This document shows positions 1,278 to 13,981 of a stretch of DNA of 32,000 nt, piece by piece. Within the stretch, counting starts at the first letter, position 1. Every line of letters starts with the position of its first letter. The notes beneath the pieces were generated by a model. The model was not told the origin of the DNA, did not search any database, and saw nothing but the letters and a program-made list of their open reading frames with translations. Position numbers and translations under genes: made by a program. The DNA is from Pseudomonadota bacterium (GTDB lineage: Bacteria; Pseudomonadota; Gammaproteobacteria; Burkholderiales; Burkholderiaceae): positions 1 through 32,000 of the forward strand of contig JBEGTH010000012.1 of NCBI GenBank assembly GCA_041179505.1, written 5' to 3'.

Positions 1278-1353
1278 GGGTCGGTAGCTCAGTCGGTAGA
1301 GCAGCGGACTTTTAATCCGTTGGTCGCGAGTTCGAATCTCGCCCGACCCACCA
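1278..1353 (+). tRNA. tRNA-Lys (anticodon UUU)
   Basis: A 76-nt cloverleaf read by eye. Acceptor GGGTCGG/CCGACCC; D arm GCTC-AGTCGGTA-GAGC; anticodon arm GCGGA-CTTTTAA-TCCGT (anticodon TTT); T arm GCGAG-TTCGAAT-CTCGC; discriminator A; encoded CCA. Confidence 0.95.
1335..1353. repeat. attL core: 19-bp direct repeat formed by the 3' end of tRNA-Lys
   Basis: AATCTCGCCCGACCCACCA occurs here and again exactly at 10963..10981. The second copy is preceded by a degenerate GCGAGTT matching the tRNA T-stem. Confidence 0.8.
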
Positions 1354-1370
1354 TAATCTGTATTAGAAAC

Positions 1371-1402
1371 AATGACTTGCTAACCGCAAGTCATTTTTTT
1401 TG
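1371..1402 (+). terminator. Rho-independent terminator supplied by the island for the reconstituted tRNA-Lys
   Basis: AATGACTTGC-TAACC-GCAAGTCATT stem-loop followed by a T8 run. Confidence 0.65.
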
Positions 1403-1422
1403 CCCATTTTTTGCGTAAAAAT

Positions 1423-1443
1423 CAATCGCACACCAATCGCACA
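1423..1443 (+). repeat. Tandem 10-bp direct repeat CAATCGCACA x2 (candidate integrase arm-type sites)
   Basis: CAATCGCACA at 1423..1432 and 1434..1443 (11-bp register), between attL and the int promoter. Confidence 0.4.
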
Positions 1444-1453
1444 TTTCATATAT

Positions 1454-1482
1454 TTGCTTTAATACCAGATTTTTGGTATAAT
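1454..1482 (+). promoter_or_regulatory. Candidate sigma70 promoter of int (extended -10)
   Basis: TTGCTT (1454..1459), 17-bp spacer, TG-n-TATAAT (TATAAT at 1477..1482), about 27 nt upstream of the int ATG. Confidence 0.45.
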
Positions 1483-1508
1483 GGATTTATATATGAAAAA
1501 ACCCTGCA

Positions 1509-2891
1509 ATGCGCTCCACATTTGATTCTACGGTCATTTTAAGACCCCAAGAGCTACGTTTAAAGCGTCGTGCGAATTCTGGCGCCTGGCAAATTCATTA
1601 CAAAATTGGCTCGAATAAAAAGTGGGTTCGAGTAACTAGTAAAACCAGTGATTTATCGGCTGCCAAGCAGATTGCTGAAGACCTCTTTCATGAGGCCCGA
1701 GTACTAGATAAACGCGGTCTATCAATCATCAGCAAAAAGTTTAAAGCAGTAGCTCAAGTGGTCAGCGAACGATTTAAAGAGCAAGTCAAAGCCAAAACAG
1801 GCAAAAAGGCCTATGCAGACTACTACCGGGCCATTGATTCTTACCTTATCTCCTTCTTTGGCGGGCATAACGTAGACAACATCACCCCTGCACTCATTGC
1901 TGAGTTTCATCAATGGCGAACAGAACAAGTTGGTTACGAGCTCAAAGCATCAACTCAAAACAATCACAACAGCGCCTTAAATGCCGTATTTGATTACGCC
2001 ATTGAAAAAGGTTGGATGACCAATAGCCAAAGACCTAGCCTTAAAAACACTGGTGAAGCCACTTCTGCTCGCGGCATCTTTAGTACCGATGAATTATTAG
2101 AGCTACAAAAGTTCATCCAAAAATGGACTAAAGATGGTCGCAAAGGCAAAACGCAATATCTACGTGAGTTGCTTGGTCTCTATGTCACCTTCATTGCTTG
2201 TACAGGTGTTCGTCCAGGCACAGAAACTAAAGAGCTGAAGTGGAAGCATATTGAATTTATCCAAAAGACCAATATGCGTGTAATTCACATTACTCTGCCC
2301 CAAGGCAAGCGTGGCAGTCGTGAGCTTATTGCCCGTAACGAACTTTGGCCGCTATTAGATAAGCTACGTGAACTGCAACCAGAATATAAAGACCTTACTT
2401 TAGAGCAGCTCATTGCCAAAAAAGAAAACAAACACATTTTCCGTATGCGCGATGGAACAATCCCTTACAACCTAGTTAATGCCTTTGGAGATTGCCTACG
2501 CGAAGCTAGCATGGACAAGGGTGATAAAGATGGCAGACCGAGAAGCTTGTATAGCCTACGTCACTACTACGCTACGCAGCGGGTGTTAGAGGGTATGAGT
2601 TTTGGCTTATTGGCCAAGCAAATGGGTACTAGCATTTTGATGATTGAGCGCCACTATAGCCACTTAAAACCCCTCATGGTCGCAGAGCAGCTTGCTGGAG
2701 ATATTCCCGACGATAAAACAGCAGCCAATGATGAAATCCGTCGCTTTATGAATCCAGGACCAGTACGCAGTGACGTAATGAACTTGGTCGGAGCAACTAC
2801 TGGCGTTTATCTACCACTTGAGCAGGCGAATCCATCTGCAACGGATGAGCTTAAAGCTGAATTAAAAAAAGTAGCTACAAAGGTCAAATAA
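1509..2891 (+). CDS. int: Tyrosine-type site-specific integrase (phage integrase family)
   Basis: 460 aa. C-terminal catalytic boxes GVRPGTE (Arg I), SLYSLRHYYAT (Arg II box) and MIERHYSHL (Tyr nucleophile box). First gene inside attL next to a tRNA. Confidence 0.9.
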   Translation: MRSTFDSTVILRPQELRLKRRANSGAWQIHYKIGSNKKWVRVTSKTSDLSAAKQIAEDLFHEARVLDKRGLSIISKKFKAVAQVVSERFKEQVKAKTGKKAYADYYRAIDSYLISFFGGHNVDNITPALIAEFHQWRTEQVGYELKASTQNNHNSALNAVFDYAIEKGWMTNSQRPSLKNTGEATSARGIFSTDELLELQKFIQKWTKDGRKGKTQYLRELLGLYVTFIACTGVRPGTETKELKWKHIEFIQKTNMRVIHITLPQGKRGSRELIARNELWPLLDKLRELQPEYKDLTLEQLIAKKENKHIFRMRDGTIPYNLVNAFGDCLREASMDKGDKDGRPRSLYSLRHYYATQRVLEGMSFGLLAKQMGTSILMIERHYSHLKPLMVAEQLAGDIPDDKTAANDEIRRFMNPGPVRSDVMNLVGATTGVYLPLEQANPSATDELKAELKKVATKVK

Positions 2892-2933
2892 GATGAACTT
2901 AATACTATGCAATCTCACGGCTGAGGCGCTCAA

Positions 2934-3413
2934 ATGAACGAGTTCATTGTGAGCTTTTTTGAAAATCACGCAAAGGGCATCCTGGGCGAATGTCATGCTC
3001 GTGCCAATGATTTACATCATTTCAAACAAGTACTCTATCGTCTTAATCAAGGGGAAGATCTAAGTAGCGAACTGCCTCAGCTTAAAAAGCTAGATAAAAA
3101 AACGGCTATTAGTGCAGTCAAAACCTTGATCAAGCGCTGTGAAGAAGATATGTTGGCATTTTGGCTATTACCCAACAGCCAAAAAATCAAGGTTGAGGTA
3201 AAGCATTCATACCCTGCTACTGACTTGGTGCCAAGATTTACAGCCAACCATACTTTTACAACTCCAGCTGGCAAGGTTGGCATTCGAGTGGCCACCCAAG
3301 GCAACTATATTTCGGTACAAACCAATACCAAAGATATAACCAAACCAAAGCTAGACGAAGCGATTCGAAGCATTGAGCGGCAACTCGTGCTCATCAATCT
3401 TTCGGAACATTGA
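2934..3413 (+). CDS. Hypothetical protein (159 aa), island-borne
   Basis: Long ORF with GAGG 7 nt upstream of the ATG. No motif I recognise. Confidence 0.6.
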   Translation: MNEFIVSFFENHAKGILGECHARANDLHHFKQVLYRLNQGEDLSSELPQLKKLDKKTAISAVKTLIKRCEEDMLAFWLLPNSQKIKVEVKHSYPATDLVPRFTANHTFTTPAGKVGIRVATQGNYISVQTNTKDITKPKLDEAIRSIERQLVLINLSEH

Positions 3414-3433
3414 AAATAAGAGTTCGATTTTTC

Positions 3434-3958
3434 TTAAGAAACGCTTTCCGGACAATAGCTCTCATTGACTTCCTCAGAACCAGAATAGGCCCCGGATTTG
3501 CAATGCTTGCATGTAATGAGCCCATTTGCATAGATACGGAGACACTCAAAATAAACATATCGTGCCTTTTCATTAGCTACACATGCAAGCTCGATCCACC
3601 CTAGGTCAATAAACGGACTAATTAACTTTGATAGGCGATCAAGTGGAATGGGTGCATCAATAAACCCACAGTATTTATTCCAATCATCACCGCTCATTTT
3701 GTCTGGGCTTTTAGAGATCAATTTTCCCTCGCTAAGGCCAAATTCATAAGAAGTAATTTCTTTAGGTATAGCTGTCGGATACTGGGGACGATCAAATGCA
3801 AATCCATCGATATACAATAAAGAGTGCTGTTCTGAATAGACCCACTTAGCCCCCGAATTGTCCCACTCATATTCATTTAATAAATCTTTTAACCCCTTCA
3901 AATCAGCAATACAATCATTTGATTTTGAAAAAGTGATCATTCCATAGGCATCAGCCAT
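3434..3958 (-). CDS. Hypothetical protein (174 aa), Trp/Tyr- and Cys-containing, no signal peptide
   Basis: ORF with AGGGGA about 6 nt upstream of the ATG. Separated from the upstream operon by 141 nt that contain the 16-bp palindrome. Confidence 0.65.
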   Translation of the reverse strand: MADAYGMITFSKSNDCIADLKGLKDLLNEYEWDNSGAKWVYSEQHSLLYIDGFAFDRPQYPTAIPKEITSYEFGLSEGKLISKSPDKMSGDDWNKYCGFIDAPIPLDRLSKLISPFIDLGWIELACVANEKARYVYFECLRIYANGLITCKHCKSGAYSGSEEVNESYCPESVS

Positions 3959-4041
3959 ATATTTCCCCTAATTTAAATTTTTAAAATTGAACTTCCCCAT
4001 GGGGCAATAGATCATCATGGTCGAGACATCTACCACTAACC

Positions 4042-4060
4042 ACCGTTACTTAAGTAACGC
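4042..4060. repeat. 19-nt site ACCGTTACTTAAGTAACGC (perfect 16-bp palindrome CGTTACTTAAGTAACG), copy 1
   Basis: Identical 19-mer at 10454..10472. Intergenic, with no T-tract on either side. Confidence 0.85.
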
Positions 4061-4099
4061 CAAATAACCTAAGGCCCAAGTTTTACCCATAACAAATAA

Positions 4100-5002
4100 C
4101 TAAGCCGCCTTATCAATGTCCGACCCTGCATCATTTGCAGCTTCTTGATTAGCCAACTTTTTTAGTTCTGCAGCCTGTTCGCGCTCATTACGCTCTTTCT
4201 CACGTAAAGCATCACGTTTAGCCAAGCGCTGGCGCCACTCAATAACCTGCTGCTTGGCAACTGCCATGCTGGCCTTTTCTTCGTCACGGTATAAGCCCTG
4301 TGCATGTAAATAATTGAAAGACTGAATCATAAGCTGGTCATCCAATTGCTCATACATTGGCAGCGCACCCACAACCTTATATTCACCATCCACAATATGG
4401 GAAATCGTGTATTGAAACGAACCAAAGCGTGTTAAATCTCGCATCGCACTTTCATGCTCCTTCGGGATAATAAAAGTTGCTAGCGGTTTTTTTGCGCGAT
4501 CCTCGAAGTAAAACCGAGCAAACATGATGGCATTGTCATTTAGATATTGTTGCTTATCCTCCTTTGCTTTGACAATATCAGGATTGACCGTGCTCTGACG
4601 GATACGCTCAATACCTTCATTGGCTTTAATAAAAGCTGGTAAATCTACGGGATTTACTCCTGCATCAATAGCTACCTGCAGCACACGAGCGTAGACATGC
4701 GCTGTTTTGCGGTTTTTGCGGATCACATAGCGAACGATGATATTCAAATCAGGGCTGTTATTTTGAGTTTTGATCTTATATTCACGACTTAATGTGCGGC
4801 GCATTTTCTTGATCACATGCTCCAAATTGGGCATAGCTAAGACCTCAACTGCATAAGCCATCACTTCAGAAAGCAAAATACCAAGCTTCTCGTTCCCTTT
4901 CTCCACATAAGTTTCCACATAGGCATCGTGCTTCCCTGATAAGGCTGTACCCTGCTCCAAAAGATTTTTAATCTTTTCTACTACTTGCTTTTTAGTAACC
5001 AT
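4100..5002 (-). CDS. Hypothetical protein (~300 aa) with a charged coiled-coil-like C-terminus
   Basis: AAGGAGGGG precedes the start (ATG 5002; alternative GTG 5005). The C-terminus reads RQRLAKRDALREKERNEREQAAELKKLANQEAAN. No recognisable enzymatic motif. Confidence 0.7.
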   Translation of the reverse strand: MVTKKQVVEKIKNLLEQGTALSGKHDAYVETYVEKGNEKLGILLSEVMAYAVEVLAMPNLEHVIKKMRRTLSREYKIKTQNNSPDLNIIVRYVIRKNRKTAHVYARVLQVAIDAGVNPVDLPAFIKANEGIERIRQSTVNPDIVKAKEDKQQYLNDNAIMFARFYFEDRAKKPLATFIIPKEHESAMRDLTRFGSFQYTISHIVDGEYKVVGALPMYEQLDDQLMIQSFNYLHAQGLYRDEEKASMAVAKQQVIEWRQRLAKRDALREKERNEREQAAELKKLANQEAANDAGSDIDKAA

Positions 5003-5011
5003 CACCCCTCC

Positions 5012-5389
5012 TTAATGAAAAAATTTCTCAAAATTTGGATTAAAAGGAGCGGGATCCTGCGGCTTCACAAATGCTAAAACATGACTAAGATCGATTGACC
5101 CTCCTTCTAGATACGCATCAAGTGCTAGTAATAGCGCACAAAGGGTCATGTAATAACCCCCGTAAAACCCCTCCTCTTCGCGCAACTCAGGGTTTAAGTC
5201 CACTAAGTTTTTAAGATCTAGCACCTTAGAGAGAACATCCTCTCGCACAACTTCAACCTTGCCTGGACCCTGATCGATATGAAGCCCAATCATGCAAATT
5301 AAGGATGAAAAAATTGCCAATGAAATGTTCATGGAAAAATTCAACCCATACTCCTCCATTGATACCAATACTGATTTATCGCTGCTCAT
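5012..5389 (-). CDS. Hypothetical protein (125 aa)
   Basis: Strong AAGGAG 7 nt upstream of the ATG. The N-terminus resembles that of the 6204..6581 product. Confidence 0.7.
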   Translation of the reverse strand: MSSDKSVLVSMEEYGLNFSMNISLAIFSSLICMIGLHIDQGPGKVEVVREDVLSKVLDLKNLVDLNPELREEEGFYGGYYMTLCALLLALDAYLEGGSIDLSHVLAFVKPQDPAPFNPNFEKFFH

Positions 5390-5408
5390 AAAATACTCCT
5401 TTGATTAA

Positions 5409-5780
5409 TTAACGAAATTTATTTAAAACTATTGGTTTCTTTTTAGAATGTCGCTTTTTGGTGCGCGCTAAAAAACCAATCTTTTCCAGCGCCTTATTGC
5501 GAACTTCTTCAGAAAACAATTCGACATACTTGTTTTTACAAACGATGTATTCCACGGTTAAGCAACCCTTTCCAATTAACAATAGGTCTACAAATCCATC
5601 ATTAATCTTAGGAAGCATCACGATTTGAGTTGCTGCCTTGACCGCACCATGTTTCTCAACTAATGTGCGGACAGTTAAATGTCTGCGAGGCAAAATCTTC
5701 TCAGCCTTACTGCAAGCAAGCAGCAACTCTGCTTCAAACTGCTGAGCCATAGTTTTTTCCTCTTTAGGTATTGCAGTCAT
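5409..5780 (-). CDS. Hypothetical protein (123 aa) with a basic C-terminal tail
   Basis: The ATG directly abuts the stop of the upstream gene (TAAATG at 5783..5778), with GAGG upstream. The tail reads ARTKKRHSKKKPIVLNKFR. Confidence 0.7.
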   Translation of the reverse strand: MTAIPKEEKTMAQQFEAELLLACSKAEKILPRRHLTVRTLVEKHGAVKAATQIVMLPKINDGFVDLLLIGKGCLTVEYIVCKNKYVELFSEEVRNKALEKIGFLARTKKRHSKKKPIVLNKFR

Positions 5781-6188
5781 TTATGCAGCCTCTGCAATCA
5801 CTGTGAAGTAACTAGGCTCGATAGCAGCTACATTGCGCGGCTTTATAGGGCCAACAAGGTCGCCGTAATTAGCTACTTGGGTATTGCTATACACACGTCC
5901 CCAATAGGATTTATTCAAAGCCAAATCCAAAGTAACCTTTGTAACCTCAACCCAAAAACGCTCTTGATAGGTTTTTTCAAGCGGCCAATTCACAACAACT
6001 TTAATCAGCTGACCAATCTGAATACTTTCGCGCTCTTCTTGCTCCACAAGATCAATCGAATTGGCAAAGCCCATGTCCAGATAGTCTAGGTTCTTAAGGT
6101 AGATATCCTTGACCTCTCCGCCTTGCACCAAGTTCGCTACATCCATCGTTTCCCGATGAAAGAGCGGATCATTAACAGCTTGCTTCAT
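5781..6188 (-). CDS. Hypothetical protein (135 aa)
   Basis: ORF in an operon context. Contains ERFWVEVTKV...YWGRVYSN...GDLVGP, reminiscent of small beta-barrel DUF2314/DUF4265-type proteins (weak, from memory). Confidence 0.65.
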   Translation of the reverse strand: MKQAVNDPLFHRETMDVANLVQGGEVKDIYLKNLDYLDMGFANSIDLVEQEERESIQIGQLIKVVVNWPLEKTYQERFWVEVTKVTLDLALNKSYWGRVYSNTQVANYGDLVGPIKPRNVAAIEPSYFTVIAEAA

Positions 6189-6203
6189 AATCCACCCCCC
6201 TTC

Positions 6204-6581
6204 TTATTCGGAAACCGCTAAGTTGTCGAGGACCTCAAAAAAGCCCTCCTTATCCATCATCAGTGACTCACCAGTAGCCAACTTCAGCGGCTCCTCATAG
6301 AGCATAGAATTGCTAACGGCAATCACTAAGCAGCTAGTAAAGTGAGGCGCCATGTGATCAAGTAAGCCAACTTGCTTATACATAGCTGATACCAAGTGCG
6401 ATTCCTGCTTAAGCTTCTTGTTTGCCTTTAAGTGGCGCTTTTCATACTCCGTAAAGCCAACCTCAGCAATAGCAGCAGAGACCAGCTCTTGAGTGCCCTT
6501 GATCTGCGATACGGTCGCAGGCACAGAGAAAGCCATACCCTGCTCACTCATGTCGATATGCAATGTTTTAGATGCATTCAT
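6204..6581 (-). CDS. Hypothetical protein (125 aa), first gene of the operon
   Basis: ORF with AAAGG about 8 nt upstream. A 253-nt divergent control region lies upstream. Confidence 0.65.
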   Translation of the reverse strand: MNASKTLHIDMSEQGMAFSVPATVSQIKGTQELVSAAIAEVGFTEYEKRHLKANKKLKQESHLVSAMYKQVGLLDHMAPHFTSCLVIAVSNSMLYEEPLKLATGESLMMDKEGFFEVLDNLAVSE

Positions 6582-6834
6582 AAAATTACCTTTCGTTTCT
6601 ATATTGTTAAAATGACTTTGAAATAAATCTCAGCCGCTATGCAACAGATACTCCCGATTGCATATAAAAAATTTTCCTCTCATTGCTTCAATTCGTAATC
6701 CTGAACTTGAAGGTTTTCTCCATGTTCCGAAACCCCACTAAGTACGACTTCAAACTCCATTCAGGGCTTCATGCTATAAAGGCTAGAAGCCAATTACATT
6801 GGGATAACAGGAGGGGAACATAAGTTCCGAAGCT

Positions 6835-7614
6835 ATGGATATCGAATACTTTTACAAAGGCCTGCCATATGAAAATGAGGTCTTTGGCTTCACGCTTGAG
6901 GCATCAACCTCTAAGTCAAAGGGCACCATGTATGAAGCATGGTTTGATTTGCTAAAAGCATCACCTTGGTACAGCCAGATGGCCACAGGAAGCTACCCTA
7001 GCAAGCAAGCAGAAAATACCTGGAAAGGGTTTGGAGATCTGTCAGAAATTACCTTTAGTGACTGGTGGAAAGATCGTGGCTACAAAATATTTGCCGAAAA
7101 AGTTCCGTACAGAAAAATCGAACGAATTGTGTTGAACTATAAGATCAAACCCTCAAAGGATATAAATGCAATCCCCGTATTACATCTTGAGGTTCCCTTA
7201 AATCTGCAACCCTCAGAGCTCAAGCGGCAATTTGGCGAAATTTTAGCTAGGCAGGAAGAACTTTATCTGTCCGATAGATTCAATCGATGGGATCACAGCA
7301 GAGCAGACTTTCATTTAGTACGCGATGGAAAGCTCGATTACAGCGACATTAAATTCAGACTTGATCTATATGCTGAATTCCAAGCAGAAAAGAAAAAGCC
7401 TGGGTTCAAGAAGAATGTATTTGCCCAGGAGAGAAAATTAGTAAGTCATATAACTATCGATGACCATCTAACAAATCAATACACTAAAGAGCTCAATGAC
7501 AGCCTTGATCATTTAATAGAGCAAACACTGTCTTTAATGGCTCATGCTACTGAGGGTCACTTCCCAGAAACAATGCCGCACTCCTGGGTCAAGGAGCTGA
7601 AAGGCAAAGCTTAA
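6835..7614 (+). CDS. Hypothetical protein (259 aa), Trp-rich N-terminal half
   Basis: Long ORF divergent from the 6581 operon. Its stop overlaps the stop of the convergent recombinase gene in TTAA (7611..7614). The start codon is uncertain because the AGGAGG is 20 nt upstream. Confidence 0.6.
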   Translation: MDIEYFYKGLPYENEVFGFTLEASTSKSKGTMYEAWFDLLKASPWYSQMATGSYPSKQAENTWKGFGDLSEITFSDWWKDRGYKIFAEKVPYRKIERIVLNYKIKPSKDINAIPVLHLEVPLNLQPSELKRQFGEILARQEELYLSDRFNRWDHSRADFHLVRDGKLDYSDIKFRLDLYAEFQAEKKKPGFKKNVFAQERKLVSHITIDDHLTNQYTKELNDSLDHLIEQTLSLMAHATEGHFPETMPHSWVKELKGKA

Positions 7615-8183
7615 ATCAACTCCACTGCCCTACGCTTCATATCGTCATTTACATCTATGTATTTTTGAGTGACTGAAATATTACGATGGCCCGCAAGGCT
7701 CATTAGCACCCGTACGCTGATGCCTTTATTAGCTAGATTGGTAATGAAGCTTCGTCTGCCGCTATGGCTACTTGCTCCAGCAATACCAGAAGCTTTATAT
7801 AAATCCTTAAAGAATAAAGCTAGTGAGTTTGGAGTAAATCCACGCTTGGGGTTCTTTTGCGTATAAAAGAATGCATGGTTGACATCTCTAACCTTCAAGG
7901 TGTCGACATAGCTTTGTAGCTCGCTTTTGAGCTTTTCACTAACAAATACCGTTCTAGCGTGTTTTCCCTTGGTGTACTCAGGCAATAAACGGATTTCGGA
8001 TTTGACCTGCATAGAGGCATCACATACATCACAGATCCTCAATGCAGCCGCCTCTCCAACCCTAAGGCCCCCGAAATTCGTAATGGATAGCAACGCCCTA
8101 TTACGAACAGCGTGTTTGGTTGATTGTGTAAATCGTAAAACTTGTTCCAACTCACTAGTAGTTAATGTTTTAGCTTGTGCCAT
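7611..8183 (-). CDS. Short tyrosine recombinase (190 aa, essentially catalytic domain only)
   Basis: Motifs GGLRVGEAAAL (Arg I), SSHSGRRSFITNL (His-x-x-Arg) and LAGHRNISVTQKYI (His + Tyr). AGGAG lies 7 nt upstream of the ATG. There is no room for a normal ~100-aa core-binding domain. Confidence 0.85.
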   Translation of the reverse strand: MAQAKTLTTSELEQVLRFTQSTKHAVRNRALLSITNFGGLRVGEAAALRICDVCDASMQVKSEIRLLPEYTKGKHARTVFVSEKLKSELQSYVDTLKVRDVNHAFFYTQKNPKRGFTPNSLALFFKDLYKASGIAGASSHSGRRSFITNLANKGISVRVLMSLAGHRNISVTQKYIDVNDDMKRRAVELI

Positions 8184-8245
8184 TGCCCAACTCCTTAAAA
8201 AGTAACAAATACACAGCTATAAGCATATTTTCTGATGTTCGAAAT

Positions 8246-8271
8246 GAGCAACCGAATGTGGCATTTTTGCC
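8246..8271. repeat. Left copy of a ~26-bp imperfect inverted repeat flanking the Rep-like gene
   Basis: GAGCAACCGAATGTGGCATTTTTGCC, compared with the reverse complement of 9213..9239, GAGCAACCAAAAATGGCATTTTTAGCC. Confidence 0.6.
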
Positions 8272-8365
8272 ATCTCAATTTAGATGTTCGATTTCAATGA
8301 CTTACAGCACAACCTAACAAAATGTGTATTTTGTGTGGTTTTAATAAAAGCAGAGATTCATCAAA

Positions 8366-8389
8366 AGATGTGGCTAATCTGCCACATCT
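8366..8389. other. Perfect 9-bp stem / 6-nt loop hairpin (candidate nick site or origin)
   Basis: AGATGTGGC-TAATCT-GCCACATCT in the 434-bp AT-rich spacer next to the HUH gene. The related half-motif ATGTGGC recurs at 8256. Confidence 0.5.
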
Positions 8390-8617
8390 GCTTATAGTGC
8401 ATTAAACAGCCCTATACGCTATTTATTACTTTTCGCTGGTGTTGATATCCAGTTAGATCAGATCGTTCAAGTTTGAGTGCTTTTATACGGAGTTATTTAG
8501 AGGCTATTGATTCGTTGTTGATAAGTTTGAAATATTTTAGATAAAGCTTCGCTAATTAAAGCTTCATTCAGCTTTATTGGAAATACAGCAAGAAACCAGC
8601 GTGGTCAGTAATGCCGC

Positions 8618-9142
8618 TTATGCTAAAGTCCAAAGCACATTATTTGTGTCTTTGCGACCCAGCTCTTTGCACATGTACTCAATCCAACCGCCATCACAAA
8701 CCTTAAAGTCGTGCTGTGTATCTAGATTGTGTACGTGCGCTTTTGCCTGTTCGATATGTTTGCCTAGTTGATTAAAGCGAAAGCCTTTTGGAAAACCGCC
8801 TATTGATAGATGCAGGTGTAATCGCTTGTCCGTACGCTCGCCCTCAATTACTGCGATGTACGTTAAACCTTTGCCATGCCTGCGTACTGCATTTGTACCA
8901 AAAATAGCCTCATTTAGCTTGTGAATAAAACGTGCTGCCGCCTGCTCACAATCTTCTTTAGCAATCTGCCTGTAATGTGTGCCTTTGGGGTTTACTACTT
9001 TTATTGCCTGTTTAAGAGTCAAAGTTAACGCTATTGGATGGCTTTTTGTAAGCCCCAATAGCCATGTCCGTGCTGCTTCCTTTTGCGTAGGAGCTGCATT
9101 TGAATCGTAGGCCATGCGTTCACGGATTTCACTTAATTTCAT
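8618..9142 (-). CDS. HUH-superfamily rolling-circle replication initiator-like protein (174 aa from ATG 9142; alternative GTG 9163)
   Basis: Three ordered motifs: ALTLTLKQ (motif I-like), KRLHLHLSIG (H-U-H) and WIEYMCKELG (Y-x-x-K). No helicase domain. No clear SD sequence. Confidence 0.6.
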   Translation of the reverse strand: MKLSEIRERMAYDSNAAPTQKEAARTWLLGLTKSHPIALTLTLKQAIKVVNPKGTHYRQIAKEDCEQAAARFIHKLNEAIFGTNAVRRHGKGLTYIAVIEGERTDKRLHLHLSIGGFPKGFRFNQLGKHIEQAKAHVHNLDTQHDFKVCDGGWIEYMCKELGRKDTNNVLWTLA

Positions 9143-9212
9143 GCAGTTATTTATACAAACCACATAAATTATTTGAAATAAATTAAATCTATATATTTCA
9201 GTAACTTACGAA

Positions 9213-9239
9213 GGCTAAAAATGCCATTTTTGGTTGCTC
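9213..9239. repeat. Right copy of the inverted repeat flanking the Rep-like gene
   Basis: GGCTAAAAATGCCATTTTTGGTTGCTC, inverted relative to 8246..8271. Confidence 0.6.
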
Positions 9240-9294
9240 TTTCACAAACCTAGAAATTATTGTTTATGTGCCCATTCACTTATAGGAGAACACG

Positions 9295-9732
9295 ATGAGC
9301 GCACTATCCAATCTAAAACTAGTAGTAGCCCAAAAACCAACAAAAATACCGCCTATTGTGCAACGTCGCAATCAGGTCATCAATAAGCTCTGGGAACAGC
9401 AAAAACTCGCTGAATCAAAGGTATCAGGCACCACCTATGCACCGCTCAAAACCAAGCGAGTCAAAGACCTAGAGGGAAACATCAAAACTTTAGAGGTACC
9501 AAAGCGTCTAAAACCCTGGTGGTTTACCAGCGATACAGGCAAAACTTGCTTAGCCATTAAGTATGGGAATAAACCCATTGAAATTGCCAAAGGCAAATCC
9601 GCCATTGAAGTATCGGATATGAAGGAACTTGTATTGGTGCTAAGCCAGCTAATGCAGGCCATTAATGATGGAGAGCTAGATAGTCAAATCGATGCGGCCA
9701 GCGCCAGCGTCAGAGCAGGATTTGAGAGATGA
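9295..9732 (+). CDS. Hypothetical protein (145 aa)
   Basis: AGGAG lies 6 nt upstream of the ATG. Features KPWWF...AIKYGNKPIEI...GELDSQI. I believe similar proteins occur in other integrative islands but cannot name a family. Confidence 0.7.
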   Translation: MSALSNLKLVVAQKPTKIPPIVQRRNQVINKLWEQQKLAESKVSGTTYAPLKTKRVKDLEGNIKTLEVPKRLKPWWFTSDTGKTCLAIKYGNKPIEIAKGKSAIEVSDMKELVLVLSQLMQAINDGELDSQIDAASASVRAGFER

Positions 9733-9790
9733 GCGATAACTCGACTGCCCTACTACTCCTTTTAACTCTGCTTCTGATTGTGGAGCAACT

Positions 9791-9943
9791 ATGAATACCT
9801 ATGAAGCTTACGTTCGCGTTATGCCTAGCAATATGGTGGTGAAAACCAAGATACAAGCCGACTCAAGCCAGTCGGCTTTATTTTTATTGCAAGGAATGTA
9901 TGGAGCTAGCAATGTAGTTCACTTGCCGTCATTAGTTAACTAA
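9791..9943 (+). CDS. Small hypothetical protein (50 aa), below the ORF-track cutoff
   Basis: GGAG lies 5 nt upstream of the ATG. It reads MNTYEAYVRVMPSNMVVKTKIQADSSQSALFLLQGMYGASNVVHLPSLVN. Same strand as its neighbours, 58 nt after the 9295 gene. Confidence 0.45.
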   Translation: MNTYEAYVRVMPSNMVVKTKIQADSSQSALFLLQGMYGASNVVHLPSLVN

Positions 9944-9966
9944 ATATATAAAAAGGATAGTTAACT

Positions 9967-10398
9967 ATGAAAATTTGTGAAATTCTGACGCTCCAAGAGC
10001 GAATTAATCTAAGCAGATTGATGCCAAGGTATAAGCCCAAAGCAAAGAAGCAAAAGCCTAAGGCTGCCAAAGCTCCAAAATGGCCCAAAGTGCCAGCAGC
10101 ACCTAAAAAGCATGTTGCTCCTAGGCCTATAGTTAAAGCGCCGCCAAAGCCATTTGATAGCCCAAAGTCAGTTCGCAAATCAATAGGCCCAAAGCAAACC
10201 AAGCCGTTAGATGATCGCTCAAACTTAGAGCCTAATAGCTTCCTGAAACCATTGCCACAAAACGTTATCAGTCCACGTGATGCAGTTGATCGAGATCTAG
10301 AAAAGAAGTTGTCTTTTGGTAGGTCCATAGCAGACCATAATGGATTTGATGGAAGGTTATCAAACCGCTCTTTTGATTCAAAATCGCGGTCAAACTAA
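9967..10398 (+). CDS. Lys/Pro/Ala-rich basic, probably disordered protein (143 aa)
   Basis: Contains KPKAKKQKPKAAKAPKWPKVPAAPKKHVAPRPIVKAPPKP. AAGGA lies upstream and the gene is co-directional with 9295 and 9791. An antisense ORF of similar length exists (9936..10328), so the strand choice is not certain. Confidence 0.5.
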   Translation: MKICEILTLQERINLSRLMPRYKPKAKKQKPKAAKAPKWPKVPAAPKKHVAPRPIVKAPPKPFDSPKSVRKSIGPKQTKPLDDRSNLEPNSFLKPLPQNVISPRDAVDRDLEKKLSFGRSIADHNGFDGRLSNRSFDSKSRSN

Positions 10399-10453
10399 GA
10401 AAAATAATTTTTTATTCATCTGGCAGACAGAGATAGTGAGACGCAATACAAAT

Positions 10454-10472
10454 ACCGTTACTTAAGTAACGC
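10454..10472. repeat. 19-nt site ACCGTTACTTAAGTAACGC, copy 2
   Basis: Identical to 4042..4060 and in the same orientation (judged from the non-palindromic flanks AC...C). Confidence 0.85.
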
Positions 10473-10482
10473 TTGAATAGAT

Positions 10483-10836
10483 ATGAAGCGCACAGTTAGG
10501 CCCCAAAGAATACAAACTACTAGCGTTGACTCTAGGCTAGATAAGCAATCTCAATTTGAGAATCTACTATCCAAAGAGGTCGAAGACAATATTAAAGGCA
10601 TTGATAGGACACGATACTCATACACCATAGAGCTTTTATACCCTTCGCAAGCAACTAGATCATGGGTACACTACCAAATAGCCTATAAAGTAATTTCTCG
10701 TAACATTGGTTCGGCTACAGTTATCAAAGTTAAAACTATCGTGTGCATGAAGTCTAAATTACGATTGCTTATTAAGCGAGATAGGTGGGCCAAGAGAATA
10801 TTGGTCGGATGGGTTCCGCGCCTAAAAACTCGATGA
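10483..10836 (+). CDS. Hypothetical protein (117 aa), doubtful
   Basis: ORF only. There is no SD sequence, and the ATG lies 11 nt after the palindrome. Confidence 0.3.
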   Translation: MKRTVRPQRIQTTSVDSRLDKQSQFENLLSKEVEDNIKGIDRTRYSYTIELLYPSQATRSWVHYQIAYKVISRNIGSATVIKVKTIVCMKSKLRLLIKRDRWAKRILVGWVPRLKTR

Positions 10837-10962
10837 GTTGAATTGGCATCAGTAAAACTTATTTAACAACTCTTTAGCCGCAGCATTAAGGAAGAAAAAG
10901 GCTGGCGCTATTGCAGTGAGGGTTGAGAATGGGAATAAGGCCGTCTTATATGCGAGTTAATA

Positions 10963-10981
10963 AATCTCGCCCGACCCACCA
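10963..10981. repeat. attR core (duplicate of the tRNA-Lys 3' end)
   Basis: Exact AATCTCGCCCGACCCACCA. The upstream GCGAGTTAATA is a decayed T-arm. Confidence 0.8.
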
Positions 10982-11246: not shown

Positions 11247-11759
11247 CTACCTTGACCGATCCATCCACATATAGTTCTGCTGCATCATTTGGTTCATCAT
11301 GTTCTGCTGCATACCCATGTATTGATCCATCATGTATTGGCGTTGCTTTAACTGCTCAGGCGTTAATTTAGAGTAATAAGGGCCCATACCATTCCAGCCC
11401 ATCATTGGATCCATCATGTGTCCAGCCATCATGCCGCCGTTACCACCACAACAACCCATCATTCCCGAACCCCACATGCCTTGCATCATATTCAGATTGC
11501 TCTGCATCGCACTCCAATGAGCTTGCATCAGTTTTTGTCTTACTTGTGGATCTTGAGTTGCACGAATCTGATCCATCTGTTGTTGCATCTTTTTAAAGTT
11601 CTCTTGAATTTGAGCGGCTTGCTTATCAAACTCCGCTACATCAATATTTTTTTGTTGTGTCTGTGTGGCTTTAGTGCCTGCCCCTGCTGTTTGCGCCAAA
11701 ACGGGCGCACTTAATAAAACACCCAAACTTAAAATCGCAACACATCCTAGCTTTTTCAT
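11247..11759 (-). CDS. Periplasmic Met/Gln-rich protein with an LTXXQ motif (CpxP/Spy/ZraP-like)
   Basis: Trimmed to MKKLGCVAILSLGVLLSAPVLA (signal peptide). The longer track ORF would overlap the ATPase gene. The mature part is very Met-rich (e.g. GMWGSGMMGCCGGNGGMMAGHMMDPMMGWNGMG) and contains LTPEQLKQRQ. Confidence 0.75.
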   Translation of the reverse strand: MKKLGCVAILSLGVLLSAPVLAQTAGAGTKATQTQQKNIDVAEFDKQAAQIQENFKKMQQQMDQIRATQDPQVRQKLMQAHWSAMQSNLNMMQGMWGSGMMGCCGGNGGMMAGHMMDPMMGWNGMGPYYSKLTPEQLKQRQYMMDQYMGMQQNMMNQMMQQNYMWMDRSR

Positions 11760-11800
11760 CTCAGCACTCCTTGAGTTAAATGCTGAATATTGACTACTGT

Positions 11801-13981
11801 CTAACTTCTTAATAACCGCAATCCATTTGCCACTACTAGCAAGCTCGCACCCATATCCGCAAATACCGCCATCCACATCGTGGCTTGCCCTGTAAAGGTA
11901 AGCACAAGGAAGATAGCCTTAATGCCTAGAGCAAGAACAATGTTTTGAGTCAGAATTAGAGCGGTTGATTTGGATAGCCGAATAAAGGTAGCAATCTTGC
12001 GTAAATCATCATCCATTAGCGCAACATCAGCAGTCTCTATCGCAGTATCGGTTCCAGCCGCCCCCATCGCAAATCCAATACTTGCTCTTGCTAAAGCGGG
12101 GGCATCATTAATGCCATCTCCAACCATGCCTACCTTTAGATTGGGATCCTTTTTTAGGCGACTGTCAATTATTTTGAGCTTATCTTCAGGCAATAAATTA
12201 CCCACAATTTCATCGACACCCACCTGCTTACCTATCGCCTTGGCGGTGTGCTCATTGTCACCAGTGAGCATGATGGTAGTCACACCTAATTGGTGAAGCC
12301 CATCAATAGCCTGCTTGCTTGTTTCTCTAACAGTATCGGCTACCGCAATAATGGCTAGAACCTCTGTTTGGTTGGTAAGCAATACGGCCGTTTTGCCTTG
12401 CTGCTCGAGTGGTAATAAACGATTCTCAATATCATCAGAGCACAAACCCAATTCTTCAATCAGTCGATGATTGCCAAGGTAATACAAATTACCCTCAATA
12501 ACGCCTTTGACACCGCGACCCAGAATCGCCTCAAAGCTATCTACAGTCATTAAATCATTCTTTTGCTCTTGATTAGCATGGGCAATTGCTAGAGATACGG
12601 GATGATCAGATCGTGCTGCAAGACTGATGGCAATTTCGTGAATATGCTTGTCATTGCCACTTAATGCAAAAAAATCCGTTTGTGCAGGCTTCCCGTAGGT
12701 GAGGGTCCCTGTCTTATCTACTGCCAAGACCTTCATGCTCCGTCCTGCTTCTAAAAAAGCGCCCCCTTTAATTAAGATGCCTTTTCTTGCGGCAGATGCT
12801 AAGCCACTCACAATCGTTACTGGTGTTGAGATCACTAAGGCACAAGGACATGCAATTACTAGCATAACCAACGCCTTATAGATCCACTCTTGCCATGACT
12901 GCGCCATTAACAATGGAGGCAAAACAGCAACCAATACTGCAAGCAAGAAGACCGCTGGGGTATAGATCCTAGCGAATTGATCGACAAAACGCTGGGTGGG
13001 CGCACGACTTCCTTGCGCCGCTTCTACTGCATGAATAATTCGAGCTAGCGTTGAATGAGTCGCTTCTGCAGTAACTTTGTATTCGAACGATCCCGTCTGA
13101 TTGATCGTTCCTGCAAATACCTCATCGCCAACTATCTTATCGACGGGTAGGCTCTCACCCGTGATTGGCGCTTGATTTACTGCCGAGTTACCACTTATTA
13201 ATATGCCATCTAAAGCTATTCGCTCTCCAGGACGCACTCGAACTAAAGCACCTAAAGCAATAGCTTTAACATCTGTTAGCACCCAAGAGCCATCGGCTTG
13301 CTGAACGGTTGCGGTTTCAGGGGTGAGGTCTAATAAGCCACGAATCGCATTGCGAGCACGATCTAATGACTTGGCTTCAATTACTTCAGCAAGAGTAAAT
13401 AAGAACATCACCATGGCTGCTTCTGGCCAACTGCCAATCGCCATCGCGCCTGTGACTGCAATTGACATTAAGGCATTGATATTGAGATTGCCATTCTTTA
13501 ATGCAATCCAGCCCTTTTTATAAGTGGTAAGGCCCCCTGAAGCAATTGAGGCGATTACTAGAGCAATGACAATCCACTGATTACCAAGTTGCAGCAATTC
13601 CATGATTTCAGCCAAGGTTGCAGTGATACCTGCAATAGCCAATGGCCACCAATTGGTTTTAGGCATAGGCTCAAGTGAGCTGTCCTTTGTAGAAGTCTCA
13701 CCAATTTGTAGCACCGCCTGCATTCCAATTGAACCCAAAGCGGACTCGATAGCGTCAAGTGAGTTGAGATTGTGACCAACCGTGAGCATCCTTTGCATTA
13801 AGTTAAAATCCAACGACTCAATGCCGCTTACACTCGCTAGCTTTTTGCGAATAAGCGCCTCTTCAGTTGGGCAGTCCATATTTTCAATGCGATAGATGGC
13901 CTTATTCTTGCTCCGTATCTCAGAAGCCTTTGTCACAGGGGTTGATGTAGAACAACTACAGGAGGTATTGCATTCGCTCAT
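11801..13981 (-). CDS. cadA: Cd/Zn/Pb-translocating P1B-type ATPase
   Basis: N-terminal Cys-rich CNTSCSCST and an HMA-like NMDCPTEE. TM CPC motif IACPCALVISTP. Also DKTGTLT, TGDN and [10 protein letters not shown]. Confidence 0.9.
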   Translation of the reverse strand: MSECNTSCSCSTSTPVTKASEIRSKNKAIYRIENMDCPTEEALIRKKLASVSGIESLDFNLMQRMLTVGHNLNSLDAIESALGSIGMQAVLQIGETSTKDSSLEPMPKTNWWPLAIAGITATLAEIMELLQLGNQWIVIALVIASIASGGLTTYKKGWIALKNGNLNINALMSIAVTGAMAIGSWPEAAMVMFLFTLAEVIEAKSLDRARNAIRGLLDLTPETATVQQADGSWVLTDVKAIALGALVRVRPGERIALDGILISGNSAVNQAPITGESLPVDKIVGDEVFAGTINQTGSFEYKVTAEATHSTLARIIHAVEAAQGSRAPTQRFVDQFARIYTPAVFLLAVLVAVLPPLLMAQSWQEWIYKALVMLVIACPCALVISTPVTIVSGLASAARKGILIKGGAFLEAGRSMKVLAVDKTGTLTYGKPAQTDFFALSGNDKHIHEIAISLAARSDHPVSLAIAHANQEQKNDLMTVDSFEAILGRGVKGVIEGNLYYLGNHRLIEELGLCSDDIENRLLPLEQQGKTAVLLTNQTEVLAIIAVADTVRETSKQAIDGLHQLGVTTIMLTGDNEHTAKAIGKQVGVDEIVGNLLPEDKLKIIDSRLKKDPNLKVGMVGDGINDAPALARASIGFAMGAAGTDTAIETADVALMDDDLRKIATFIRLSKSTALILTQNIVLALGIKAIFLVLTFTGQATMWMAVFADMGASLLVVANGLRLLRS

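What the first reader, a model, noticed from the sequence alone, without database searches (positions are those of the whole stretch)
3434..6581. Tightly packed orphan operon in the island cargo slot: best candidate for an undescribed system
Five minus-strand genes run with almost no spacing: 6204-6581, 5781-6188, 5409-5780, 5012-5389 and 4100-5002. The intergenic gaps are 15, 0 (TAAATG), 19 and ~9 nt, and most have good SD sequences. A sixth gene (3434-3958) lies behind a palindrome-containing 141-nt spacer.

I cannot place any of the six products (125, 135, 123, 125, ~300 and 174 aa) in a known family. I see no P-loop, nuclease, HTH, transmembrane or signal-peptide signature. The largest has a charged coiled-coil tail.

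The genes sit between the integrase and the replication/recombination genes of a tRNA-Lys island. Integrative islands and phage satellites typically carry accessory modules (defense, anti-defense, toxin-immunity) in that position.

Many small, soluble, co-translated proteins of unknown fold are compatible with a multi-subunit complex or a stack of immunity or anti-defense proteins.
Basis: partly seen in the sequence, partly recalled or inferred. Interest (0 to 1): 0.75.

Follow-up and report, generated by a model that had tools for sequence, protein, structure and literature searches.

The report
Orphan operon in small integrative island
Six conserved genes of unknown function lie in a 9.6-kb mobile island at a tRNA-Lys gene, but they look like three parts (a core island gene, four lineage-specific add-ons and one cargo gene) rather than one new system.

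Summary
All six minus-strand ORFs exist at the stated coordinates with the stated spacing. They are under purifying selection (dN/dS 0.15 or lower) and match nothing in Pfam, NCBIfam, PHROGs, PADLOC or PDB.

The island (1335-10981, 19-nt tRNA-Lys direct repeats) belongs to a family of roughly 10-kb integrative elements found mostly in metagenomes and in Polynucleobacter.

The 300-aa protein belongs to a large unnamed family (383 representative clusters). In the 15 elements examined it is a backbone gene. In every case where its upstream flank is visible, it lies beside a divergently transcribed gene. A short tyrosine recombinase, DUF6641 and a large integrase accompany it in all but one or two of the full-length loci. 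Its AlphaFold model is confident (pLDDT 95) but has no structural match.

The four small genes upstream of it occur only in this clade. Most relatives have none, and one has three unrelated genes there.

The real cargo slot lies just downstream of the 300-aa gene, next to a conserved GTTAC-N4-GTAAC palindrome. Relatives carry AbiE or restriction-modification genes there. This window carries the 174-aa gene.

All functions remain inferred.

The parts
1278..1353 (+). tRNA-Lys(UUU). Its last 19 nt (1335-1353) form the left island boundary (attL).
   Evidence: ARAGORN; direct repeat D4
1509..2891 (+). Large tyrosine integrase (460 aa), a backbone gene
   Evidence: Phage_int_SAM_5 match with weak Phage_integrase match; 82-94% identical in relatives at the same site
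2934..3413 (+). 159-aa integrase-linked backbone gene of unknown function
   Evidence: Follows the integrase in the window clade and in L014, L017 and L018
3434..3958 (-). 174-aa acidic protein that occupies the cargo slot downstream of the 300-aa gene
   Evidence: Present only in the window and in L002-type relatives (52% identity), on opposite sides of the palindrome. The same slot holds AbiEi/AbiEii in L008.
4045..4058 (.). Conserved palindrome GTTAC-TTAA-GTAAC, copy 1, in the 141-nt spacer
   Evidence: The arms are conserved in elements whose proteins share less than 35% identity, while the centre varies (TTAA, TGCA, CGTA, CGCA).
4100..5002 (-). 300-aa backbone protein: all-alpha N-terminal domain with a conserved basic patch, a small beta hairpin and a 60-residue C-terminal helix
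   Evidence: 383 representative clusters at E<=1e-3; pLDDT 94.9; no PDB or BFVD match; present in every related element
5012..5389 (-). 125-aa acidic protein, clade-specific and possibly a paralogue of the 6204-6581 product
5409..5780 (-). 123-aa basic protein (pI 9.9) with a Lys/Arg-rich C-terminal tail, clade-specific
   Evidence: no PDB sequence match
5781..6188 (-). 135-aa acidic protein with a predicted SH3/Tudor-like beta-barrel. It is the only small gene also found next to a 300-aa-family gene in a distant genome (L007).
6204..6581 (-). 125-aa protein encoded by the first gene of the operon, clade-specific
   Evidence: truncated to 37 aa in L002-type relatives
6582..6834 (.). Divergent intergenic region between the operon and the 259-aa gene, presumed to be the promoter region
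   Evidence: Position only; 71% identical to L010 and not conserved elsewhere; no consensus promoter found on the minus strand
6835..7614 (+). 259-aa backbone gene, transcribed divergently from the operon; a candidate regulator
   Evidence: Family members flank the 300-aa-family gene divergently in L017-L020. An HTH protein occupies that position in L025.
7611..8183 (-). Short tyrosine recombinase (190 aa, catalytic domain only), a backbone gene
   Evidence: Phage_integrase 3.5e-26; matches to Xer and FimB/E-type invertase models
8618..9163 (-). 181-aa HUH Rep-like protein
   Evidence: REP_ORF2-G2P E=1.8e-5, below the curated cut-off. Motifs LTLTL, HLHLHL and YMCK can be read in the translation.
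9295..9732 (+). DUF6641 protein, a backbone gene
   Evidence: PF20346 E=8e-18; present in all related full-length elements
10457..10470 (.). Conserved palindrome, copy 2, 13 nt upstream of the 117-aa gene
10963..10981 (+). Right island boundary (attR), a repeat of the tRNA-Lys 3' end

Best explanation
The six genes are a composite of three parts, not one system.

(1) The 300-aa gene is a core gene of a previously undescribed family of roughly 10-kb integrative elements. The family is defined by a large integrase, a short tyrosine recombinase, DUF6641, a divergently transcribed gene of about 260-340 aa, and this protein. I infer that the 300-aa protein is an oligomeric, sequence-specific DNA-binding protein that works on the element's own DNA, in regulation, maintenance or replication. 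The conserved GTTAC-N4-GTAAC inverted repeats that mark module boundaries are its most likely target.

(2) The four small genes (125, 135, 123 and 125 aa) are lineage-specific accessory genes inserted between the divergent promoter region and the core gene. They are therefore expressed together with it. They most likely modulate the core protein or act on the host or on phage when the element is activated.

(3) The 174-aa gene sits in the element family's true cargo hotspot. It is the best candidate here for a stand-alone accessory or defence function.

Shown: gene reality, conservation, synteny, the backbone-versus-variable status of each gene, the location of the cargo hotspot, and conservation of the palindrome. 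Inferred: DNA binding, the target site, and every biochemical role.
For: Backbone status: a profile search finds 383 representative clusters. Every context examined (L001-L006, L008-L013, L014/15, L017-L021, L024-L026) is the same element type. DUF6641 is in every full-length locus, a short tyrosine recombinase in all of them but L014/L015 (a resolvase there), and a large integrase wherever the locus reaches that far (none in L010/L011).

Variable status of the small genes: they are absent from L014, L017/18, L021 and L024-26, where the 300-aa-family gene directly abuts the divergent gene. L019 has three unrelated genes there instead, one of them GNAT-like. L002-type relatives have lost the 135, 123 and second 125-aa genes.

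Cargo hotspot downstream: AbiEi/AbiEii in L008 (PADLOC 2.8e-86 and 5.8e-115; Pfam). A methyltransferase, helicase and NucS-like module in L021 is bracketed by two palindromes. The slot is empty in L001 and L005.

DNA-binding inference: the model is confident (pLDDT 94.9), with a helical N-terminal domain and a 60-residue terminal helix. Conserved residues R92, R96, R99, K100, H103, Y105 and R107 cluster together. pI is 9.0.

Palindrome: the arms are identical across elements with less than 35% protein identity, while the 4-nt centre varies. One copy lies 15-100 nt downstream of the 300-aa gene, or of the last gene of its operon, in most lineages.

All genes are under purifying selection.
Against: No DNA-binding domain is detected by sequence or fold. 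The most distant elements (L024-26) keep the protein but lack the palindrome, so the proposed protein-site link may hold only for a sub-family, or another backbone protein may bind the site. The 135-aa family lies next to a 300-aa-family gene in a distant Methylococcaceae MAG (L007). That argues for a real functional pairing rather than a loose accessory relationship. The weak, collinear similarity among the 125-, 125-, 136- and 139-aa proteins (hhalign E 0.004-0.014, probability below 10%) is unproven. No expression data exist, and no promoter was found by consensus scan.
Confidence: 0.5

Rival explanations
1. This is the first reader's reading: the five or six proteins form one dedicated multi-subunit defence, anti-defence or immunity system carried as island cargo.
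For: The genes are tightly packed and translationally coupled. Order is conserved in at least five relatives. Four of the six products are small and acidic (pI 4.5-5.5), as many anti-defence and immunity proteins are (general knowledge). The 135-aa and 300-aa families are paired in a distant genome. Related elements do carry defence genes.
Against: There are no PADLOC hits. The 300-aa family occurs without any of the small genes in most elements. L002-type islands keep the 300-aa gene after losing three small genes. Recognisable defence cargo in relatives sits in other slots.
Confidence: 0.15
2. The element is a phage satellite, and the operon is its helper-exploitation module. The 300-aa protein acts like a small terminase or packaging-site binder that recognises the palindrome, and the small proteins redirect or inhibit helper functions.
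For: The element is about 10 kb and has an integrase and a small HUH Rep-like gene but no conjugation genes. It has a divergent regulatory layout. The best, though insignificant, viral fold hits include an HTH protein and small terminase subunits (E 0.07-0.85). A conserved DNA site lies next to the gene.
Against: None of the six proteins, and none of 106 members of the 300-aa family, has a PHROG hit at E<=0.001 (at most unknown-function PHROGs at E>=0.06). Pattern scans for the 300-, 135- and 123-aa families found nothing in IMG/VR contigs, and tblastn with the 300-aa protein found nothing in INPHARED phages. There are no capsid, portal, terminase, AlpA or primase genes. The fold hits are not significant.
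Confidence: 0.15
3. The small genes form a stack of toxin-antitoxin or toxin-immunity pairs that stabilise the island.
For: The gene pairs are small and alternate between acidic and basic products: the 123-aa protein has pI 9.9 and its neighbours have pI 4.5-4.8. A related island carries an AbiE type IV TA module nearby.
Against: No toxin or antitoxin domain was found in Pfam, NCBIfam or PADLOC. The orthologues show no nuclease, kinase or membrane-toxin motif. The genes are lost en bloc in L002-type islands without leaving a remnant partner.
Confidence: 0.05

Closest known systems
tRNA-integrating genomic islands that act as defence-cargo carriers (for example P4-like or PICI-type elements with cargo hotspots)
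   Same: A roughly 10-kb element at a tRNA 3' end with a tyrosine integrase and flanking direct repeats. The backbone is conserved, and a defined hotspot swaps cargo: AbiE, R-M modules and unknown genes.
   Different: None of the backbone genes matches P4, PICI, cfPICI, PLE or PICMI marker genes. There is no primase-helicase and there are no AlpA, terminase or capsid genes. Instead the backbone comprises DUF6641, a short catalytic-domain-only recombinase, and the unnamed 259-aa and 300-aa families.
DNA-binding proteins with a long coiled-coil tail that act on mobile-element DNA (KfrA, ParB/KorB-type centromere binders, small terminase subunits)
   Same: The general architecture inferred for the 300-aa protein matches: a helical N-terminal domain with a basic patch plus a long C-terminal helix. 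A conserved inverted repeat lies next to the gene.
   Different: There is no detectable sequence or fold similarity to any of them. No partner ATPase is present. The resemblance is an analogy from my own knowledge, not a tested relationship.
SH3/Tudor-like small beta-barrels (for the 135-aa protein)
   Same: The predicted fold is a five- to seven-stranded small barrel. The top PDB hits are consistently Tudor, BAH, chromo and ribosomal bL19 domains.
   Different: E-values are 0.03 or higher and the model is only moderately confident (pLDDT 77). No function can be transferred.

Membership tests
tRNA-integrating integrative element (genomic island) | Tyrosine integrase next to a tRNA gene | tested here: met
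   tRNA-Lys at 1278-1353; 460-aa integrase at 1509-2891
tRNA-integrating integrative element (genomic island) | Direct repeat of the tRNA 3' end delimiting the element | tested here: met
   Exact 19-nt repeat at 1335-1353 and 10963-10981
tRNA-integrating integrative element (genomic island) | Evidence of excision or a circular form | tested here: inconclusive
   Two independent contigs of a distant relative (L014, L015) are circular permutations of each other. Nothing was tested for the window's own element.
Known anti-phage defence systems (PADLOC-DB v2) | At least one protein matching a defence-system model | tested here: not met
   No hit for any of the six proteins at E<=1
Phage satellites (P4-like, PICI, cfPICI, PLE, PICMI) | Primase/replicase of the satellite type | tested here: not met
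   Only a 181-aa HUH Rep-like protein, and it scores below the Pfam cut-off
Phage satellites (P4-like, PICI, cfPICI, PLE, PICMI) | Phage-derived packaging, capsid or hijacking genes | tested here: not met
   Apart from the short recombinase's integrase hits and a weak replication-initiator hit for the HUH Rep-like protein (E=0.02), the PHROG scan of ten island proteins gave only marginal hits, almost all to unknown-function families (E>=0.02); no terminase, capsid or portal family. No member of the 300-aa family matches any PHROG.
Phage satellites (P4-like, PICI, cfPICI, PLE, PICMI) | Induction and packaging by a helper phage | not testable with these tools
   Needs an experiment
Toxin-antitoxin or toxin-immunity modules | A recognisable toxin or antitoxin/immunity domain | tested here: not met
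   No Pfam, NCBIfam or PADLOC hits
DUF2314 (YegJ-like), a memory-based lead for the 135-aa protein | Profile similarity to PF10077 or to E. coli YegJ | tested here: not met
   No Pfam hit for any of 18 family members at E<=10. hhalign against YegJ gives probability 3.9%.
Unnamed 300-aa protein family (this work) | Significant profile match over the N-terminal roughly 140-230 residues | tested here: met
   383 representative clusters at E<=1e-3 and 177 at E<=1e-10. None has a consistent Pfam domain.
ParB/KorB/KfrA/small-terminase-type DNA binders (for the 300-aa protein) | Sequence or fold similarity to solved members | tested here: not met
   PDB sequence profiles and Foldseek against PDB and BFVD give no significant hit
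ParB/KorB/KfrA/small-terminase-type DNA binders (for the 300-aa protein) | Specific binding to a cis-acting DNA site | not testable with these tools
   Only the positional association with the GTTAC-N4-GTAAC site is available

The most novel reading that the evidence does not exclude
The 300-aa family, the divergent 259-aa family, DUF6641 and the short recombinase together define a new class of minimal integrative elements in freshwater Proteobacteria, and these elements shuttle defence cargo. Within it, the 300-aa protein would be a new DNA-binding or DNA-processing fold, with an invariant Tyr inside a conserved basic helix, that recognises GTTAC-N4-GTAAC sites at cassette boundaries. The clade-specific small acidic proteins and the 174-aa protein would be new anti-defence or defence factors.
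Probability: 0.3. Interest if true: 0.7.

Novelty: new variant of a known kind. Interest (0 to 1): 0.5.

Why it matters
If this reading is right, a whole family of small mobile elements in abundant freshwater bacteria such as Polynucleobacter runs on backbone proteins that have no annotation at all. The elements carry R-M, AbiE, NERD and unknown cargo. The 300-aa family alone spans hundreds of sequence clusters and has a confidently predicted fold with no match in solved or viral structures.

Defining the backbone lets one read the cargo slots. This gives a principled way to nominate new defence or anti-defence candidates, such as the 174-aa gene and the small acidic proteins here. It also turns "orphan operon" into a set of testable, separable hypotheses.

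Tried and rejected
1. Pfam, PHROGs, PADLOC and NCBIfam scans of all six proteins found nothing.

2. blastn and tblastn of the block or the 300-aa protein against PLSDB plasmids and INPHARED phages found nothing. Two distant family members also gave nothing against PLSDB.

3. PDB sequence-profile searches for the 300-, 135-, 123- and 125-aa families gave only chance-level hits.

4. Foldseek of the 300-aa model against PDB and BFVD gave no hit below E=0.07.

5. Foldseek of the 135-aa model gave generic SH3/Tudor-like barrels at E>=0.03.

6. My memory-based idea that the 135-aa protein is DUF2314-like was rejected.

8. IMG/VR pattern scans for the 300-, 135- and 123-aa families found nothing. A scan with the broad alignment could not be run.

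9. I tested whether the inverted-repeat-rich non-coding region next to the short recombinase is an invertible switch. All relatives have the same orientation.

10. Literature searches for DUF6641, DUF6876 and Polynucleobacter islands found no description of these elements.

11. I considered a filamentous-phage reading, prompted by the weak REP_ORF2-G2P hit. I rejected it because there is no Zot-like ATPase and there are no membrane coat proteins.
Full report
**Observation.** The sequence shows gaps of 15, 0 (TAAATG), 19, 9 and 141 nt, and purine-rich ribosome-binding motifs before each start. An alignment of 15 homologues supports the ATG at 5002 as the start of the largest gene, giving 300 aa.

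- The island context is correct. tRNA-Lys(UUU) lies at 1278-1353.
- An exact 19-nt repeat of the tRNA 3' end at 10963-10981 delimits a 9.6-kb element.
- That element contains a 460-aa integrase, a short catalytic-domain-only tyrosine recombinase, a small HUH Rep-like protein and a DUF6641 protein.

**The genes are real and orphan.** None of the six products has a credible match at E<=1 in Pfam, PHROGs, PADLOC or NCBIfam (only four unknown-function PHROGs at E 0.06-0.6).

- DNA and protein searches of plasmid and phage collections are empty.
- PDB sequence-profile searches give only chance-level hits.
- The five-gene block recurs in the same order in at least five distinct metagenomic relatives at 49-78% amino-acid identity.
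- Pairwise dN/dS is 0.15 or lower wherever dS is not saturated.

**The 300-aa protein is a backbone gene, not cargo.** A word-indexed search found only 16 close relatives. An exhaustive profile search found 383 representative clusters at E<=1e-3 and 177 at E<=1e-10, with the N-terminal roughly 140 residues most conserved. None of 106 diverse members carries a consistent Pfam domain, and none hits a PHROG.

- I examined the genomic context of eight increasingly distant members. These were L014/15, L016, L017/18 (a Polynucleobacter paneuropaeus genome), L019/20, L021, L024, L025 and L026.
- Every informative context is the same type of small element. DUF6641 is in all of them, a large integrase of 403-479 aa in all but L025 (whose 460-aa gene beside the 159-aa-like gene has no Pfam hit on record), and a short tyrosine recombinase of 187-219 aa in all but L014/L015, which carries a resolvase instead.
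- In every case, a gene of about 256-336 aa is transcribed divergently from the 300-aa-family gene. In L025 an HTH protein takes that place.
- HMMs built from the window clade confirm that the 259-aa, 159-aa and DUF6641 families are shared with these distant elements.
- Two independent contigs of one relative are circular permutations of each other, which fits an excised or plasmid-like form.

**The small genes are clade-specific insertions.** In L014, L017/18, L021, L024, L025 and L026 the 300-aa-family gene directly abuts the divergent gene.

- Only the window clade has the 125, 135, 123 and 125-aa genes in between, and some members add a 139-aa gene.
- L019 has three unrelated genes there, one of them GNAT-like.
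- L002-type relatives have truncated the first 125-aa gene to 37 aa. They have lost the 135, 123 and second 125-aa genes, gained an unrelated 136-aa gene, and kept the 300-aa gene.
- There is one exception. A 155-aa homologue of the 135-aa protein (28% identity) lies just upstream of a 300-aa-family gene in a Methylococcaceae MAG, and the 135-aa family has further distant members. This hints at a real 135/300 functional pairing.
- The two 125-aa proteins and the 136- and 139-aa proteins share collinear motifs (invariant Met, Gly and Cys columns). Their hhalign matches are weak (E 0.004-0.014, probability below 10%). Paralogy is possible but unproven.

**The true cargo slot is downstream of the 300-aa gene.**

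- In L008 that position holds a textbook AbiEi/AbiEii pair.
- In L021 it holds a methyltransferase, helicase and NucS-like module.
- In L024-26 it holds other unknown genes.
- In L001 and L005 it is empty.
- In this window it holds the 174-aa gene. Its only homologues are in L002-type islands (52% identity), where the gene lies on the other side of the conserved palindrome.
- Elsewhere in these elements relatives carry Type I R-M (L017, L019), a NERD protein (L014) and a 309-aa protein with weak HEPN similarity (L001, L002).

**A conserved cis element.** It recurs at 10457-10470, against a chance expectation of 0.14 per window.

- The same site, or variants with identical arms and a different 4-nt centre (TGCA, CGTA, CGCA), is present one to four times in relatives. 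These include elements whose proteins are less than 35% identical.
- The sites lie at the boundaries of transcription units. One copy usually sits 15-100 nt beyond the end of the 300-aa gene's operon, often just after a clear rho-independent terminator. In L021 two copies bracket the R-M module.
- Arms that stay sequence-identical around a free centre argue for recognition by a dimeric protein rather than for a mere hairpin.
- The most distant elements (L024-26) lack the site.

**Structures.** With a 106-sequence alignment, AlphaFold2 models the 300-aa protein at pLDDT 94.9. The model has a helical N-terminal region, a small beta hairpin (199-213) and a 60-residue C-terminal helix.

- Foldseek finds nothing below E=0.2 in PDB or E=0.07 in BFVD. 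The best viral hits (an HTH protein and small terminases) are not significant.
- Conserved basic residues cluster in residues 92-107, which include an invariant Tyr, and pI is 9.0.
- The 135-aa protein models at pLDDT 77 as a small beta-barrel. Its best matches are Tudor, BAH and bL19 domains at E>=0.03.
- My recollection that it resembles DUF2314 was tested and rejected.
- Four of the six proteins are acidic (pI 4.5-5.5). The 123-aa protein is basic with a Lys/Arg tail.

**Interpretation.** The best-supported reading (confidence about 0.5) is a composite.

- The 300-aa protein is a core, probably oligomeric, DNA-binding factor of an undescribed family of integrative elements. It plausibly acts at the GTTAC-N4-GTAAC sites.
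- The four small genes are lineage-specific accessory genes co-expressed with it.
- The 174-aa gene is the occupant of the cargo hotspot.

Shown here: gene reality, conservation, synteny, backbone-versus-variable status, hotspot location and site conservation. Inferred: DNA binding, the target site and every biochemical role.

The rivals are a single multi-subunit defence or anti-defence system (0.15), a phage-satellite hijacking or packaging module (0.15) and a TA or immunity stack (0.05). The remainder is unassigned.

**Novelty and score.** The element type (a tRNA-integrating island with a cargo hotspot) is a known kind. Its backbone proteins, including a large protein family with a confident but unmatched fold, are undescribed in every library and paper collection I could search. 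I rate it a new variant of a known kind, with interest 0.5. The finding is genuine and opens testable questions, but it is not the single novel system that was proposed, and no function is established.

Noticed in passing
window 8184-8485: The non-coding stretch between the short recombinase and the Rep-like gene is 85-92% identical at the nucleotide level to relatives whose flanking genes have saturated synonymous sites. It contains nested inverted repeats (8198-8211/8420-8433, 8217-8228/8386-8397, 8256-8272/8371-8387). It is likely an origin, a recombinase target or an ncRNA. There is no Rfam hit, and no inversion is seen among relatives.
   Followed up: partly
window 10417-10482: The region upstream of the 117-aa gene, which includes the second palindrome copy 13 nt before the start codon, is 86-96% conserved in relatives even though the gene product is only 44-50% identical. 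It is probably a promoter/operator.
   Followed up: partly
window 8618-9163 (-): The 181-aa protein carries all three HUH rolling-circle Rep motifs (LTLTL, HLHLHL, YMCK) but scores below the Pfam cut-off for REP_ORF2-G2P. It is absent from several related elements.
   Followed up: partly
window 7611-8183 (-) and 6835-7614 (+): The short tyrosine recombinase (catalytic domain only, with hits to Xer and FimB/FimE-type invertase models) converges on the 259-aa gene, and their 3' ends overlap by 4 nt.
   Followed up: no
L008 5364-7021; L021 7231-12952; L017 3095-9106; L019 796-6832; L014 5689-6348: Related elements carry recognisable defence cargo: AbiEi/AbiEii, a methyltransferase, ResIII helicase and NucS-like module, Type I R-M (twice) and a NERD protein.
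   Followed up: yes
L014 and L015 (whole contigs): Two independently assembled contigs of about 10.5 kb from a distant relative are circular permutations of each other. This suggests a circular (excised or plasmid-like) form. They carry four copies of GTTACTGCAGTAAC.
   Followed up: partly
window 9967-10398 (+): A 143-aa, extremely basic (pI 10.6), Lys/Pro-rich protein with internal DNA repeats is conserved in the window-clade relatives.
   Followed up: no
window 5780-5783: In this window the 135-aa and 123-aa genes are in the same reading frame, separated by a single TAA. In relatives they are 11 nt apart and out of frame, so there is no evidence for conserved readthrough.
   Followed up: yes
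window 11247-31696: A metal-resistance cluster lies immediately beyond attR. It has two P-type ATPases, a MerR regulator, a multicopper oxidase, an outer-membrane factor and an RND pump, plus a 209-aa Met/Gln/Gly-rich ORF (11247-11876) with no Pfam hit. Relatives have Czc-type genes at the same flank.
   Followed up: partly
L022 (Azospirillum sp. B510 plasmid pAB510d, 12001-13752): The only DUF6641 hit in PLSDB lies directly next to a site-specific integrase at the edge of an island-like region. This fits DUF6641 being an integrase-associated backbone protein.
   Followed up: partly
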